A DNA stretch of 64,000 nucleotides. Origin: Octopus vulgaris (taxonomy: Eukaryota). The DNA lies in the NCBI GenBank assembly GCA_951406725.2, contig OX597823.1:112964001-113028000 (forward strand). The letters run 5' to 3'. Within the stretch, counting starts at the first letter, position 1. Each line of letters opens with the position of its first letter. Below, in pieces: positions 6,240 to 49,998 of the stretch. The position numbers were made by a program, and so were the translations under genes. The notes below the pieces were generated by a model. It was not told where the DNA came from. It saw only the letters and a program-made list of their open reading frames with translations, and did no database searches.

Positions 6240-6870
<631 letters not shown>

Positions 6871-7141
6871 GAACACGCAGATATATTGTTTAAGGTAGGA
6901 TACAATTATATTTCCTAAAGTCTTCCAGGCAATGAAATGCAATAGGATGCCACAACCTTAATAAACTGTCTCTCATGCATATACAGGCAGAGGATCAAGT
7001 ACTCCATTTTCTATTTCAATTCTTGAAATCTCTCTCTATATATAATAGGTTCAATCAACTCTTTTGTTTGTTATTTCTTTCTACACAATCTTATCAAAAT
7101 CAATTTGGCTTCCATTTTTCTATATCATTGGTAGCATCACA

Positions 7142-7306
7142 GGCGCAGGATTGGCTGTGTGGTAAGTAGTTTGCTTATCAACCACATGGTTCCGTGTTCA
7201 TTCCCACTGGGTGTGACCTTGGACAAGTGTCTTCTACTATAGCCTCGGTCCGACCAAAGCCTTGTGAGTGGATTTGGTAGACGGAAACTGAAAGATGCCC
7301 GTCGTA

Positions 7307-7391
<85 letters not shown>

Positions 7392-7603
7392 ATATGTTTG
7401 TGTGTCTGCGCTTGTCCACCCAACATTGCTTGACAACCAATGCTGGCGTGTGTAAGCTTCACTTAGCGGTTCGGCTAAAGAGGCCGATAGAATAAGTACT
7501 AGGCTTACAAAGAATAAGCCCTGGGACCGATTTGCTCGACTAAAGGCGGTGCTCCAGCATGTCCGCAGTCAGATGACTGAAACATGTAAAAGAGGAAAGA
7601 GAG
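7142..7603 (+). mobile_element. SINE family B with internal (TA)n
   Basis: GGCGCAGGATTGGCTGTGTGGTAAG head, CORE-like GTGACCTTGGACAAGTGTCTT, internal (TA)n at about 7305-7380, tail GACTGAAACATGTAAAAGAG. Short TSD ATCACA at 7136 and 7604. Homologous to the 42349 and 57957 copies. Confidence 0.9.
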
Positions 7604-13512: not shown

Positions 13513-13930
13513 GGCGGCGAGCTGACAGAATCATTTAGCACGCTGGGCGAAATGCGTAGCCGTATTACGTCTGCCGCTACGTTCTGAGTTCAAATTACAC
13601 CCAGGTCGACTTTACCTTTCATCCTTTCGGGGTCGATAAATTAAGTACCAGTTACGCACTGGTGTCGATGTAATCGACTTAATCCATTTGTCTGTCCTTG
13701 TTTGTCCTCTCTGTGTTTAGCCCCTTGTGGGTAGTAAAGAAATAGGCATTTCGTCTGCCGTTACGTTCTGATTTCAAATTCCGCCGAGATAGACTTTGCC
13801 TTTCATCCTTTCGGGGTCGATAAATTAAGTACCAGTTACGCACTGGGGTCGATGTAATCAACTTAATCCGTTTGTCTGTCCTTGTTTGTCCTCTCTGTGT
13901 TTAGCCCCTTGTGCGTAGTAAAGAAATAGG
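13513..13930 (+). mobile_element. SINE family A head-to-tail dimer
   Basis: A full monomer is followed by a second unit restarting at GCATTTCGTCTGCC (13746; period 184). One TSD, AGGTATGATTACATGCATAA, at 13493-13512 and 13928-13947. Confidence 0.9.
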
Positions 13931-43655: not shown

Positions 43656-44030
43656 CAGATATATGCATATTTACATAGAAAACATCTGGTCATTGGCAAA
43701 GATGTGTAATTTCGAGCTTCACAAACGGCTGTGAAATAAGTATATATGTAATATTTTCTTCGCGGCAATGTGCAGTGAAATTGGTTTGGAAGACAAAATA
43801 TTTCCTTAATATCTTTCTAGAAGCTTCATGTTTCTGTCTTTCACAACTCTGTCTTGTATCACTACTGCTATATGTATCATATATGTGTATGTCTGAACAT
43901 ATACTTACATTTGTTTATATTATAACCATATGTGTGTTTGTATACTCTCACACACATGTATATATATATATATATACACGCCCACAGAACTTTATATATA
44001 TATTAAATATTTAACATGATAAATTAAATA

Positions 44031-44061
<31 letters not shown>

Positions 44062-44062
44062 C

Positions 44063-44236
44063 TTAAATATTCAACATGATAATTGTATTGTAGGCAACTG
44101 GTCCTAATGTTTTAAGTTTAAAATTCAGTTAATGAGTTTCTTCTATAAGAAAGATAATGATTTTATACCTTTAAGAAATATTGCTTAATTCTATTTGCTT
44201 ATTTATTTAACTATTATTGTTAACCTGAAGAGTGAC
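44063..44236 (+). repeat. partial direct copy of 45171-45353, ending inside the hammerhead core
   Basis: Both copies contain TTAAATATT.AACATGATAA...GTAGGCAACTGGTCCTAATGTTTTAAGTTTAAAATT...CTGAAGAGTGAC. Confidence 0.85.
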
Positions 44237-44261
44237 TATACATACATACATACATACATAT

Positions 44262-44330
<69 letters not shown>

Positions 44331-44331
<1 letters not shown>

Positions 44332-44489
44332 TGAAGGATTAAAATTAATCAAAAGACATATTACGTATGTTAACCTGCTGGAAATAATAGTAAAAATTCT
44401 TATTAAAATCGGCAAGATAAGAGTTGTGACTGTTATTTCCAGCAGGTAGACATACTTAGTATGTCCTTTGATTCATTTTAATCCTTCAG
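44331..44489. repeat. about 160-bp imperfect palindrome abutting (TA)n
   Basis: CTGAAGGATTAAAAT..ACCTGCTGGAAATAA pairs with TTATTTCCAGCAGGT..ATTTTAATCCTTCAG. Confidence 0.88.
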
Positions 44490-44933: not shown

Positions 44934-45010
<77 letters not shown>

Positions 45011-45012
<2 letters not shown>

Positions 45013-45683
45013 AGAGAAAAACCGCTATTATGCAATTCAAACAATGATATACATAAATCAAATCATAAATAAAAGCATATTCTATAGGTTATTAATGTTT
45101 TTTTTTAATTAAAGCTAAATTATATCTTTACACCTAAATACATTTTCTATTTACTCTATTTTTTTTAACTTTAAATATTTAACATGATAAATGTTTTGTA
45201 GGCAACTGGTCCTAATGTTTTAAGTTTAAAATTTAGGCAATGAGTTTCTTCTATAAGAAAAATCCTGATTTTATTTCTTTAAGAAATATTGTTTAATTCT
45301 ATTTGCATACTTATTTAACTATTATTGTTGTTTTTGTTAAGCTGAAGAGTGACAATAATTTTAAATTAAAGTTTTTCGATACAATTTAAATTTAATTGTA
45401 ATTCAAATTTAAATTATAGCCATGAAACGTTCGTAGCTTTTTTATTTATTACATATTGTTTATTCATTTTTGTACTTTTTATAATCTAATTATTTGTTTT
45501 AAAATATATTTTTAAAATATATTTTATTTTTTATTTATTATTTAGTTTATGTCCTTCATTGTTTGAATTGCATAATAGCGGTTTTTCTCTAATTTATATA
45601 TTATATATTTATATTGTGAAAGTTAATTTAATATTAAATTGAAATTTTCCTTGCAAGTTTGGAGTTATGCTCCCTAAAATTGT
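45011..45683 (+). mobile_element. hammerhead-containing fold-back element X1 (PLE-like, non-coding)
   Basis: Inverted arms at about 45011-45074 and 45528-45591 enclose a hammerhead motif. The end ...AAGTTTGGAGTTATGCTCCCTAAAATTG runs into (AAT)n. Confidence 0.65.
45338..45439 (+). ncRNA. type-I hammerhead ribozyme motif (stem I damaged)
   Basis: CTGAAGA (45342-45348), long AT-rich stem II (GTGACAATAAT...ATTATAGCCAT), GAAAC (45424-45428), GTTC, GTA. Shares GCCATGAAACG(T/A)TCGTAG with the 46.0-kb motif. Confidence 0.6.
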
Positions 45684-45705
45684 AATAATAATAATAATAA
45701 TAATG

Positions 45706-45741
<36 letters not shown>

Positions 45742-45743
45742 GT

Positions 45744-45780
<37 letters not shown>

Positions 45781-46195
45781 ATAATAAATATTAGGGAATA
45801 AATCCAAACTTACAGAGAAAAATCAGATTTAGGATTGAATCCAATTTTATAGTAAAATATTATATTATATTAAATTAGAGACAAAACCACTATTAGGCAA
45901 ATCAAACAATGAAAAACTTAAGCCAATACATAAGATTATTTAATTTATATTATTTAAGTATATAGCAAAATTATTAACAAAATATAATTAATATCACACT
46001 ACGATCGTTTCATGGCTGCTAACTTCTTCAAATTTTCAAGTCACAGTCATTCATCAGGTGGTTTAAATATTTATTTTTTTAATAATTTTGTTATATATTT
46101 AAATAATATAAATTAAATAATCTTATGTATTGGCTTAAGTTTTTCATTGTTTGATTTGCCTAATAGTGGTTTTGTCTCTAATTTAATATAATATA
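45781..46195 (-). mobile_element. hammerhead-containing fold-back element X2 (PLE-like, non-coding)
   Basis: Inverted arms of about 123 bp at 45861-45983 and 46073-46195 enclose a hammerhead. Arms and terminal segment are homologous to X1. Flanked by microsatellites. Confidence 0.75.
45997..46060 (-). ncRNA. minimal type-I hammerhead ribozyme
   Basis: Minus strand: CAC-CTGATGA-ATGACTGTGAC...GTTAGCAGCCAT-GAAAC-GATC-GTA-GTG. The core is intact, and the palindromic ACGATCGT stem III is typical of PLE hammerheads. Confidence 0.8.
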
Positions 46196-49100
46196 TATAT
46201 ACACACACATATATATACACATATGTGTATATACATATGGTAGAATAATTGTAAATTCGTGTTCAACAGTACTGTCATGGGACGAAAAAGCAAAGAAGAG
46301 GTCATTAGTTCAGAGGGACCCAAGTCTTCTGTTCTGTGTAGATGAAGAACAGAGAGATAAAGTAATGGATATCTGAGACCAACTTTGGAGGTAAGTAAAT
46401 GCTTTATAGTCATTTTATAGCAAGATACTCATTTACATAAGGTAGAGACAGAACAAACGAGAAATAAATCGACGTAAACAGTGTAAGGATTTCTGCCGAA
46501 CAAAATGTAAAATGAATATGTATGGTTATTGGTAGTAATTCTTTAACAGATTGGTTGCCACAGAAAATACATAAAAGTGGAAGATGTAGAAACCACTATA
46601 AGCTGAAACGTATTAAGTTTTGTCCTTCAGTTACCGCGGTGGACATAACCAATGCCTATGGATTTATTTTTCTGGTTCCCCACTTCCTTCTCTCCTACTT
46701 CTTTCTATCATTCTTATCCTCTCTCTTCTCCGTCTTCTCCATCTCATTTACCGCTTGTTTTTTTCTCTTCCTTCTACTCTCCTACTTTTCTGTATTAGCT
46801 TTGTATCAAACATCTAGTAAATAGTTTTATATTATTGTCTCGTTTTCGATATTTCTTGTCAGCGTCACTAATCCGGCCACTGCAATCGTGTACGTAGCCT
46901 CAGTTTAATTGAGTATTCTCATTATGAACCTACATCGTTTGCCAGTCTGATATGATGGGTATTTGATAGAGGAGTGCGAATGCAGCAGGAATGGAAGATA
47001 ATAGAAAATAGAACAGAATGGACTAAGCGGATCAGGAGCATACACGAGGACGAAAAGTGTCGCGGAAGAGGTCACAAATGTGTGACGAGAGATTTCTGGA
47101 CAATTGACATCAGTTAAAATAAGAACAATAATAAACGAGTAAGGGACGAATATATTGTGTGTGTGTTTATTTCATAGGAAAACTAAGATCAGCTTGGAAT
47201 ATAAAAATATCTGTTTCAACACACGGTTTCACATTGGAAATCTTGCAACACAAATTCAAAATCATAATAGAAACTATTATTTAAAAATAGTTAATTATTG
47301 TAATTATCATGCGATAAAATTAATTAAGATGGTGTGCACAATATAGGAGGAGGTTTGACAAATTCATTTTTTAATGGCCTTTGTCTGGAATGGTTTGAGT
47401 CCTCGACTCTCCATTCGCTCTTAGTCCGATGAGATCGACGTGTTTGAAGGTTCTTTTGAAGAAACAGAGAGGGAATTGCGAAAGGAAGTCGTTCAGAAGA
47501 AGACATTGGCGTAGTATTTAAATTGGGATGTGGGATGGGATTTAGTAGACACAATATCAATAAAGAAAGGAGTAATGACTAAATTCACAGAGCTTGAATT
47601 GAAACGAGCCATACCCGTGTTTTTCGAAGAGAAAAGCGCACTGTAGTAGCAGTAGAAAAGGCAAAGACAGATAACAGTACTTGCATTTTCGAATTAAGAG
47701 CTGATGGTGTGTTGCAGGGGCGAAACCATATTGAGCAAGATGCTACTTCAAGAAAACCTTCTTCATTTACGCTTCTAATTTCATTAATGAAAATGTGAAT
47801 GTTAAATAATGTCATGGTCACCATCTTTTAGCACTCACAATGTGTTGCTTTGGGCCCTAATATGATATAACTATAATAATGACGAATAATACGGTTCGAT
47901 TATCATTTCACTGGGCAAGATTTCCTATGGCATCTAATACTGTAGAATTTGACATTAACTTTAATCCCCTCTCCAAATCGATAAACAGGAAATAAACTGT
48001 AGACGACCTAAGTGACTACAAAAGTTTCATTCTTATGGAAGAAGCTTTGTGTCGAACAAATTCGATATTAATTTGATAACTTTACTTTCTTGCCACATAT
48101 TTCCACGGAGGAAGCTTAAAGTCGATTGAATTCATACTATTCCTGTACTGGTGCAAATTTTATCGTCCACAGGGGGATGGAAATTAATAATTAAATCTGT
48201 AAAATTCCAATCCTGAATTTAGTAGGCCATAACTAAATATTGCATGTTATTTAATCTAGCTATCTACCATTTCTACCAACGCAACGCCTTCCGGAAATAC
48301 AACACTATCGAATATAAAATTATCAACCAAACCTGACTCACTTGTCGGATAAACTCATAAAAAATTTTTCTGCGGACGTTTGGACAGTGGACATTATTGA
48401 ATCAATCAAAACAGTGTTTACTGCTGAACACCTGCGTTTATTTGATGCAGACTGACTTTTAATTAAATTGCCAGACAAGAAATCGATATGAACTTGCATG
48501 TCGTATGTAGACAGATATTTTCATTCTCAGGAAACAACCATTTGCAAAACATTGAAATTAGACTGCGAAAGCATGTCTGCCTTTGTTACCAAAGTACATC
48601 GTTTCTCGTGTACGATATGTTGCAGTTCGATTGAGACAACAACGTTCGTTATTAATCTTATCCCATAAAACAAAAAAAGAGGGAGAATAGTGGTCGACAG
48701 CGGGGTAGGTGGAGCAACATACAAAAGGCCTGTGGTATTTAGTTTCGTTCTTTCATGTGCTGAGTTTTAAATAACCCCCATCCACCTTAACCTGATTTGT
48801 GACGTTCCCTCTAAAACAGAAATCACAATCTGTGGTTTTCTGCCAATAGTGGAAATCGTATTATTAGAAATAAATATGGTGGTGAATGTCAGAAAAATCA
48901 ATGTGCTACACGAAAGAATTAAAGTATGTAATTCAGCGAATTTATGTTCTCAGTTATTTGATCTCGGATTAAACTTGATTTGGCAAGGCTATGATCAAAA
49001 TCTTTTCGGCCATTGCAATCATGTGTTTAGTGGTATCGTGAATTAAATTATGTAGTTTATCTTCCTTGTTTAAAAGATAGGATTTCATTTGAGAGAGATT

Positions 49101-49356: not shown

Positions 49357-49998
49357 GACGGCGAGCTGGCAGAAACTTTAGCACGCCGGGTGAAATGCTT
49401 AGCGGTATTGCGTCTGCTGCTACGTTCTGAGTTCAAATTCCGTCGAGGTCGACTTTACCTTTCATTCTTTCCGGGTCGATAAATTAAGTACCAGTTACGC
49501 ACTAAGCTCGATGTAATCGACTTAATCTCTTTGTCTGTCCTTGTTTGCCCACTCTGTGTTTAGCTCCTTATGTGCAATAAAGAAAGAAGAAACGTTAGCA
49601 CACCGGGCAAAATGCTTAGCGGCATTTCGTCTGCCGTTACGTTCTGAGTTCAAATTCCGCCGAGGTCGACTTTGCCTTTCATCCTTTCGGGGTCGATAAA
49701 TTAAGTACCAGTCACGCACTAGGGTCGATGTAATCGACTTAATCCCTTTGTCTGTCCTTGTTTGTCCCCTCTGTGTTTAGCCCCTTGTGGGCAATAAAGA
49801 ATTAAGAAACGTTAGCACGCTGGGCGAATTGCTTAACATTATTCCGTCTGTTTTTACGTTCTAAGTTCAAATTCGGCCGAGGTCGACTTTGCCTTTTATC
49901 CTTTCAGGCCGATAATTACGAGTTGCGTACTGGAATCTATTTAATCGACTGGCGTACTCCCCCTAATTTTCGGGCCTTGTGCCTAGAGTAGAAAAGAA
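49357..49998 (+). mobile_element. SINE family A head-to-tail trimer (last unit has a different, type-3 tail)
   Basis: AGAAAC(G/T)TTAGCAC at 49371, 49588 and 49805 (period 217). One TSD, AATA(T/A)TTT(G/A)CCTCATCTA, at 49338-49355 and 49997-50014. Confidence 0.88.

What the first reader, a model, noticed from the sequence alone, without database searches (positions are those of the whole stretch)
45011..46195. Pair of non-coding fold-back elements with hammerhead ribozymes in their loops, tail-to-tail at a microsatellite
Seen: X1 (plus) and X2 (minus) are diverged homologues sharing the arm TAGAGA.AAACC.CTATTA.GCAA.TCAAACAATGA, the motif GCCATGAAACG.TCGTAG and a terminal TTAGGGA...TCCAAACTT block. 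Each has inverted arms enclosing a type-I hammerhead, and their 3' ends face the same (AAT)n(TA)n tract. No ORF or TSD is present. Known: minimal hammerheads with palindromic stem III mark Penelope-like elements, and retrozymes are non-autonomous hammerhead retroelements. Inference: a microsatellite-targeted, ribozyme-processed, hairpin-forming family mobilised by PLE RT/GIY-YIG. This is the best candidate for an undescribed system in the window, though the elements could also be extreme 5'-truncated and inverted PLE ends.
Basis: partly seen in the sequence, partly recalled or inferred. Interest (0 to 1): 0.8.

Follow-up and report, generated by a model that had tools for sequence, protein, structure and literature searches.

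The report
Penelope transposon ends, one intron-spliced
The two hairpins are short, flipped end-pieces of a known type of protein-coding jumping gene, not a new system; the one twist is that one of them likely belongs to hundreds of copies that lack the element's intron exactly, which would mean this intron-keeping class also copies its spliced RNA into DNA.

Summary
The anatomy is real, but it is not an undescribed system. X1 and X2 are the terminal repeats (pLTRs) of two sub-lineages of an abundant coding Penelope-like element (PLE) with all the Hydra-clade protein motifs. The same end follows the RT/GIY-YIG ORF in 34 of 40 coding loci fetched. The inversion point varies (arms 35-249 nt), and one arm usually carries a ~70-nt tail that the other lacks, a known PLE signature. 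Tail-to-tail pairs are rare (20 against 6,221 or more tails). X1's hammerhead has two private lesions; X2's is intact but untested.

The twist: the pLTR holds an 851-nt GT-AG intron-like segment. The genome has 250 exact matches to the precisely spliced junction against 13 to the unspliced donor. All 30 sampled spliced hits start 13-32 nt upstream, near an initiator-like site; none reaches the ORF, and they arose in several lineages. X2 likely is such a copy. This points to reverse transcription of spliced sense RNA primed in the 5' leader, which bears on the open question of PLE intron retention. No RNA evidence was obtained. The scan noted the same spliced copies earlier in another genome (e1-9581210).

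The parts
44935..45008 (.). (TC)n(TA)n microsatellite, left flank of X1
45002..45074 (-). X1 inverted 5' arm: reverse copy of the element end that starts at the tail-less site (about 67-70 nt short of the 3' end)
   Evidence: maps to -152..-67 of reference L076
45071..45681 (+). X1 sense part: last ~600 nt of an older Hydra-type PLE sub-lineage (unspliced 3' UTR/pLTR)
   Evidence: 82% to L076, which carries ORF remnants upstream
45339..45439 (+). X1 type I hammerhead with very long stem II; C3 at 45342, predicted cut 45435/45436; two private lesions, so likely dead
45602..45681 (+). X1 'tail', present only on the sense arm
45683..45787 (.). (AAT)n(TA)n tract between the two independent insertions
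45787..45860 (-). X2 'tail' (~70 nt), present only on the sense arm
45787..46070 (-). X2 sense part: exon 2 of the pLTR, starting exactly at the inferred splice acceptor
45996..46060 (-). X2 type I hammerhead: 3-bp stem I, long stem II, palindromic stem III; C3 at 46057, predicted cut 46000/45999
46071..46074 (-). ATAA, matching the last four bases of exon 1 (three shared with the inverted arm as microhomology); marks X2 as a likely spliced copy
46072..46195 (+). X2 inverted arm starting at the tail-less site (-70), 98% complementary to the sense arm
46193..46239 (.). (TA)/(CA) microsatellite, outer flank of X2

Best explanation
X1 and X2 are short, end-inverted copies of the terminal repeat of a coding Hydra-type Penelope-like retrotransposon, likely inserted separately into one microsatellite, and X2 likely was reverse-transcribed from the spliced 5' leader of the element's mRNA. 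Shown: the link to the ORF, variable inversion points, two fixed ends 70 nt apart, TA/TTA flanks, and exact removal of a GT-AG segment in hundreds of copies. Inferred mechanism: the RT/GIY-YIG protein cuts a (TA)n tract and primes cDNA from both DNA ends, one at the tail site and one 70 nt upstream. The two cDNAs meet head-to-head, often through microhomology, which gives the fold-back with one tailed and one tail-less arm. The transcript would start at an initiator-like site about 24 nt before the donor and carry the pLTR twice. Priming in the downstream copy gives 5'-truncated or full-length copies that keep the intron (X1). Priming in the upstream, spliced copy gives ~240-310-nt copies that stop at the RNA's 5' end (X2). 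The hammerhead is the element's ordinary pLTR ribozyme and was uncut in the copied RNA.
For: ORF linkage: X2-like ends follow the endonuclease region on the same strand in 34 of 40 coding loci fetched, with pLTR-ORF-UTR-pLTR layouts such as L112, L122, L134, L141; X1-like ends are linked to ORF remnants in L076 and L077. Clade: KWK, DKT, YRDD, CxCX5C, YIG without the two-cysteine CCHH part, CxxC and CxH in the 838-aa ORF, as defined in PMC8557442 section 11. Inversion: 22 of 40 position-ordered copies carry an inverted piece from the fixed site (17 by self-alignment; 5 more by reference mapping), with arms of 35-249 nt. Two ends: of 17 two-armed insertions among 30 spliced hits, 15 have exactly one tailed and one tail-less arm and 2 fit approximately (my count). 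Splicing: donor TAA|GTATGT and acceptor TTTTAG|ATATTT are 851 nt apart in L122; 250 exact spliced junctions against 13 unspliced donors and 88 unspliced acceptors; a second donor is joined to the same acceptor in 6 of 40 coding loci. 30 of 30 sampled spliced hits start 13-32 nt above the junction and 0 of 30 run into the ORF. Spliced rows are not one clade (12 changes, at least 8 forced, 0% of 200 bootstrap trees), and X2 sits in a 96/83 clade with three spliced rows. Internal priming at two sites and cutting of both strands are shown in vitro for an anole PLE (PMC11167929).
Against: No RNA read shows the start site, the splice or the cleavage. X2's own spliced status rests on four bases, three of them shared with the arm, plus tree position on 200 columns. 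L116 has a similar junction that lacks 4 nt and is better read as a microhomology deletion, so not every short form is a splice product. The three junction patterns differ in length and the two arms of one insertion count twice, so 250:13 is not an exact ratio. The spliced-junction pattern itself fixes 13 nt of exon 1. Pfam gives no RT or GIY-YIG hit for the ORFs, so the protein call rests on motifs and homologues. No tree with named Hydra proteins was built. The order and independence of the X1 and X2 insertions is inferred from divergence (89% against 98% arm identity), not from empty sites.
Confidence: 0.85

Rival explanations
1. The spliced ~310-nt form became a self-propagating non-autonomous mini-element (SINE- or retrozyme-like) with its own initiator, transcribed from solo copies and moved in trans by the Hydra protein; X2 is one of its copies.
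For: Defined 5' end, no coding capacity and high abundance; spliced rows are more clustered than shuffled labels (12 changes against a mean of 19); 0 of 40 position-ordered copies have ORF sequence on the same strand within 4 kb upstream. Non-autonomous PLE derivatives are described (PMC8557442; bioRxiv 2026.07.22.740005).
Against: Spliced copies carry the diagnostic letters of at least three autonomous sub-lineages and interleave with unspliced copies in the tree. No head-to-tail array of the spliced unit was seen among the 30 hits.
Confidence: 0.1
2. X2 is plain 3' debris from the downstream pLTR, and the short junction is a DNA-level deletion in a master copy, unrelated to splicing.
For: L116 shows a microhomology-type deletion at nearly the same place; the region is very AT-rich.
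Against: The common junction removes exactly GT...AG, also in the lineage ending GTTAA where no microhomology exists; two different donors join the same acceptor; the copies stop at one upstream position instead of running on into the 3' UTR.
Confidence: 0.04
3. One reading: a dedicated ribozyme-processed fold-back family whose hairpin and tail-to-tail pairing are functional.
For: Tail-to-tail pairs (20; control 1) exceed random placement (0.9-5.4); stem III stays palindromic through three different sequences.
Against: Arm length and hammerhead position vary freely; pairs involve under 1% of 6,221 or more tails, which shared microsatellite targeting can explain; copies do not start at the cleavage site; the palindrome is a known pLTR hammerhead trait (PMC4209133).
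Confidence: 0.01

Closest known systems
Hydra clade of EN+ Penelope-like elements (Craig et al. 2021, PMC8557442), including Hydra-1_Obim and Penelope-13_HM
   Same: C-terminal GIY-YIG, DKT, CxCX5C, no CCHH, CxxC and CxH, (TA)n targeting, canonical hammerhead near the 3' end; Penelope-13_HM is listed with a 5'-truncated inverted copy.
   Different: Longer (about 5-7 kb against under 3 kb as typical) because of a 2.5-4 kb 3' UTR; tail about 70 nt against 30-40; RWK reads KWK; the hammerhead differs from the one listed for Hydra-1_oBim; stem II ranges from 16 to 77 nt; pLTR intron with abundant spliced retrocopies, which I did not see described in the passages read.
Penelope of Drosophila virilis (Schostak et al. 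2008, PMC2377424; Cervera and de la Pena 2014, PMC4209133)
   Same: Start site in the pLTR, a 5'-UTR intron shortly after it (46 bp there, about 24 nt here) that ends just before hammerhead stem I.
   Different: Intron of 75 bp there and 851 nt here; Penelope is noted for keeping its intron in genomic copies, whereas here spliced leader copies outnumber unspliced donors.
Poseidon_Ac of the green anole (Frangieh et al. 2024, PMC11167929)
   Same: Two internal RT start sites that define the tail, cutting of AT-rich DNA on both strands, hammerhead cleavage not needed for insertion.
   Different: Different clade; there the ORF starts inside the hammerhead, here the ATG lies about 270-350 nt downstream of it.
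Metazoan non-LTR retrozymes (PMC7229834, search listing only; bioRxiv 10.64898/2026.07.22.740005, part 1 of 5 read)
   Same: Short, non-coding, type I hammerhead, PLE-related.
   Different: Retrozymes are head-to-tail tandem units; these copies are dispersed, inverted, of variable length and collinear with a coding element.

Membership tests
EN+ Penelope-like element | Single ORF with RT followed by GIY-YIG endonuclease linked to this end | tested here: met
   838-aa ORF (L134) between two pLTRs; YRDD and YIG motifs. Pfam gave no supporting hit.
EN+ Penelope-like element | pLTRs in partial tandem and inverted 5'-truncated copies | tested here: met
EN+ Penelope-like element | Tail extension on one end only | tested here: met
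   Ends at 0 or -70; (70 nt rather than 30-40)
EN+ Penelope-like element | Type I hammerhead in the pLTR | tested here: met
   Motif and covariation; not detected by Rfam
EN+ Penelope-like element | Target-site duplication | tested here: inconclusive
   Flanks are (TA)n, so a duplication cannot be read
Hydra clade | DKT, CxCX5C linker, no CCHH, CxxC and CxH near the C-terminus | tested here: met
   against the definition
Hydra clade | N-terminal RWK motif | tested here: inconclusive
   KWK in L134; RW in all 11 homologues aligned at that column, RWK in 3 of them
Hydra clade | (TA)n insertion preference | tested here: met
   38 of 40 against 160 of 2000; part of the (TTA)n may be element-derived
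Hydra clade | Placement in the Hydra branch of an RT tree with named members | not tested
Non-LTR retrozyme | Head-to-tail tandem units each with a hammerhead | tested here: not met
   X1 and X2 are single inverted copies; no tandem of the unit among 30 spliced hits
Non-LTR retrozyme | Self-cleavage and circular RNA | not testable with these tools
   Needs a bench assay or stranded raw RNA reads
Dedicated fold-back or MITE-like family | Constant inverted repeats and constant length | tested here: not met
   Arms 35-249 nt; 18 of 40 without an arm at the fixed site

The most novel reading that the evidence does not exclude
Most short copies of this Hydra PLE are cDNAs of the spliced, sense 5' leader, primed inside the upstream pLTR from both ends of a cut (TA)n site. 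PLE intron retention then needs no antisense template: it follows from which of the two pLTR copies in the RNA is primed, and the spliced leader copies may seed SINE-like or retrozyme-like offspring.
Probability: 0.55. Interest if true: 0.6.

Novelty: new variant of a known kind. Interest (0 to 1): 0.42.

Why it matters
As first proposed it does not matter: inverted pLTR ends with hammerheads are standard PLE anatomy. The spliced-leader copies do matter. PMC8557442 says the significance of PLE intron retention is unknown, and PMC3846280 proposes an antisense template to explain it. Hundreds of exactly spliced genomic copies that stop at a likely transcription start argue that sense, spliced RNA is a routine template. 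They also give in vivo support to the internal two-site priming seen in vitro for the anole element. The genome holds ORFs of about 840 codons without a stop, so the model can be tested directly.

Tried and rejected
Rfam found nothing in the window at the gathering threshold and no hammerhead family at E<=10. A genome search with RF00163 scored only 73 candidates and returned 6 matches elsewhere, so it was uninformative. Pfam had no RT or GIY-YIG hit for five ORF pieces, and the PDB sequence search gave one chance hit. Monomer and dimer folding did not return the active hammerhead fold (X2 z -2.06, X1 z 0.05), so folding neither supports nor rejects activity. Sequencing runs: no RNA holder listed. 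Contigs laid on the X2 half were swamped by other copies and did not bridge the microsatellites, and no read data were obtained for X1, so presence or absence of X1 and X2 in other individuals stays open. The first X2 query selects look-alike copies, so structure counts use the tail-selected set and the first 40 places on contig C1. One search was swamped by microsatellite hits and was redone with masking. 'Loop 0' values come from BLAST running through the hairpin and were not used. Core conservation is built into the search pattern, so only stem covariation counts; those rows include relatives, both arms of some insertions and a few non-family hits. The tree left out 10 rows of unclassified junction, one being X2's own locus. 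Rejected: MITE or DNA fold-back element (unequal ends, variable arms); Naiad (endonuclease is C-terminal); Neptune/Nematis (no CX2-5CxxC); retrozyme (no tandem). Searches for an earlier description of spliced PLE copies found none, but Arkhipova 2003 and Evgen'ev and Arkhipova 2005 were seen only as reference-list entries and may mention intronless copies.

Full report
Observation. The window lies in a 2.8-Gb animal assembly; protein homologues named from Argonauta and Octopus suggest an octopod, which is an inference. The fold-backs, the shared motif and the facing 3' ends are real. X2's hammerhead is complete by sequence: a 3-bp stem I, CUGAUGA, a long stem II, GAAA, the palindrome ACGATCGT and a predicted cut at 46000/45999. 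X1's has G.G at the base of stem I and a broken palindrome. Rfam does not detect either.

Both elements are repeats. X2 gave 89 matches from 40 scored of 1,033 candidates and X1 gave 86 from 40 of 2,540. A 20-nt tail motif has 6,221 exact matches and none for the reversed control. X1-like copies extend far upstream of X1's inversion point. Walking upstream in 20 long stretches reached RT and endonuclease remnants in L070 (X2 type) and in L076 and L077 (X1 type). A search with that protein piece returned 153 matches, with open frames up to 862 codons. Of 40 of these loci fetched, chosen by rank or by ORF length, 34 have the X2-like end downstream on the same strand, and many show pLTR-ORF-UTR-pLTR.

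Clade. The 838-aa ORF has KWK, DKT, YRDD, CTCRDKSNC (CxCX5C), a YIG with one cysteine before it, CYLC and CRH. These are the features that PMC8557442 gives for Hydra PLEs, along with (TA)n targeting and canonical hammerheads (abstract, passages and section 11 read). Its supplement (part 2 of 59 read) lists Hydra-1_Obim, whose hammerhead differs from this one, so this is a different family. Pfam gave no supporting hit and no tree with named members was built.

Inversion and tail. In 30 tail-selected loci, 19 (one is X2 itself) have an inverted piece starting at -70 or -74 with variable inner ends. In the first 40 places on contig C1, 22 have such a piece, self-aligned arms run from 35 to 249 nt, and none has ORF sequence on the same strand within 4 kb upstream. 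The hammerhead may lie in the loop, in both arms or be absent. Copies end either at the full 3' end or 70 nt short of it, and two-armed insertions nearly always have one end of each kind. This is the pLTR, inversion and tail layout of PMC3846280 (passages), and the tail is explained by two internal RT start sites in PMC11167929 (parts 1-2 of 4 read). Microsatellite flanks follow 38 of 40 copies against 160 of 2000 control windows. Convergent pairs number 20 in the genome, above random placement (0.9-5.4) but under 1% of tails. X1 and X2 are 77% alike and differ in arm identity (89% against 98%), so separate insertions into a shared target is the simplest reading.

Hammerhead. Among 112 distinct rows with an intact core, stem III is palindromic in 101, in three forms (70, 17 and 14 rows), and the third stem I pair varies as C-G, A-T and G-C. 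This fits selection on master lineages for a dimer-type hammerhead as in PMC4209133 (passages and discussion read), which found low activity in vitro. Activity here is untested. The copies begin upstream of the ribozyme, so the copied RNA was uncut there.

Spliced copies. Many X2 relatives join a short upstream block directly to the base before the hammerhead. In coding elements these lie 851 nt apart, bounded by TAA|GTATGT and TTTTAG|ATATTT. The joined form has 250 exact matches, the unspliced donor 13 and the unspliced acceptor 88; pattern lengths differ and arms count twice. All 30 sampled joined hits stop 13-32 nt above the junction, around the A of TTCATTG at 24 nt, and none continues into the ORF. 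A second donor about 230 nt after the stop codon joins the same acceptor in 6 of 40 coding loci and in 5 exact matches for one pattern. Of 13 upstream pLTRs that lead into the ATG, 11 are unspliced, one looks near-spliced (L112) and one far-spliced (L143). In a 73-row tree the spliced label needs 12 changes, at least 8 of them forced, so spliced copies arose repeatedly. L116 has a near-identical junction lacking 4 nt, probably a DNA deletion. X2's sense part begins exactly at the acceptor, preceded by ATAA, and it groups with three spliced rows, so it is probably (about 0.85) such a copy. X1 keeps sequence upstream of the hammerhead, and nearly all X1-type rows show no AG at the matching place.

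Mechanism and known context. The inferred cycle is given under the best explanation. D. virilis Penelope has the same order of start site, early intron and hammerhead (PMC2377424 passages), and PLEs are noted for keeping introns, with an antisense template proposed as the cause. Four searches found no report of abundant spliced PLE retrocopies; two key older papers could not be read. I reached this reading; a later look-up showed an AI note with the same reading in another genome (e1-9581210), which is not independent evidence.

Verdict. Not a new system: these are Hydra PLE ends, with a variant behaviour (spliced-leader retrocopies) that makes an open mechanistic question testable. Interest 0.42.

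Noticed in passing
window 44063-44241 and 44002-44031: A third X1-type fragment (83% to L076, 91% to X1 over 159 nt) with only the 5' half of the hammerhead, ending in (ATAC)n; a 30-nt piece of it is duplicated just upstream.
   Followed up: partly
window 44331-44489: MITE-like hairpin with 73-nt arms (86% complementary, 13-nt loop) next to a (TA)n run.
   Followed up: no
hammerheads across stored loci: Stem II plus loop runs from 16 nt to 77 nt across sub-lineages while the closing pairs are kept; X1's lineage has the longest form.
   Followed up: partly
L128, oriented positions 6770-7520: Five or six tandem ~110-nt repeats of the tail-less end (-177..-70) follow the element, suggesting repeated re-priming at the -70 site.
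   Followed up: no
L127 and L148: Inverted pairs of other, unrelated hammerhead motifs lie beside the Hydra copies.
   Followed up: no
ORFs of L076, L134, L143: Asparagine-rich insert between the RT thumb and the linker, variable in length, like the N-rich inserts described for Adineta PLEs.
   Followed up: no
window 45669-45677 and 45788-45800: The 3' end carries a single CCCTAA, the reverse complement of the animal telomeric unit (recalled), kept across sub-lineages; one hexamer only.
   Followed up: no
ORF start, e.g. L122 oriented 2028-2050: A donor-like ACAG|GTAAG sits five codons into the ORF in all full-length copies seen.
   Followed up: no
P0014: A homologue from Argonauta hians is annotated as a GATA zinc finger protein but aligns as a Hydra-type PLE RT.
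   Followed up: partly
L079: Fragments of other PLE-like proteins lie within a few kb of an X1-type copy.
   Followed up: no
window 13564-13930 and 49371-49905: Short tandem arrays of a 184-217-nt SINE-like unit (the SINE label is recalled).
   Followed up: no
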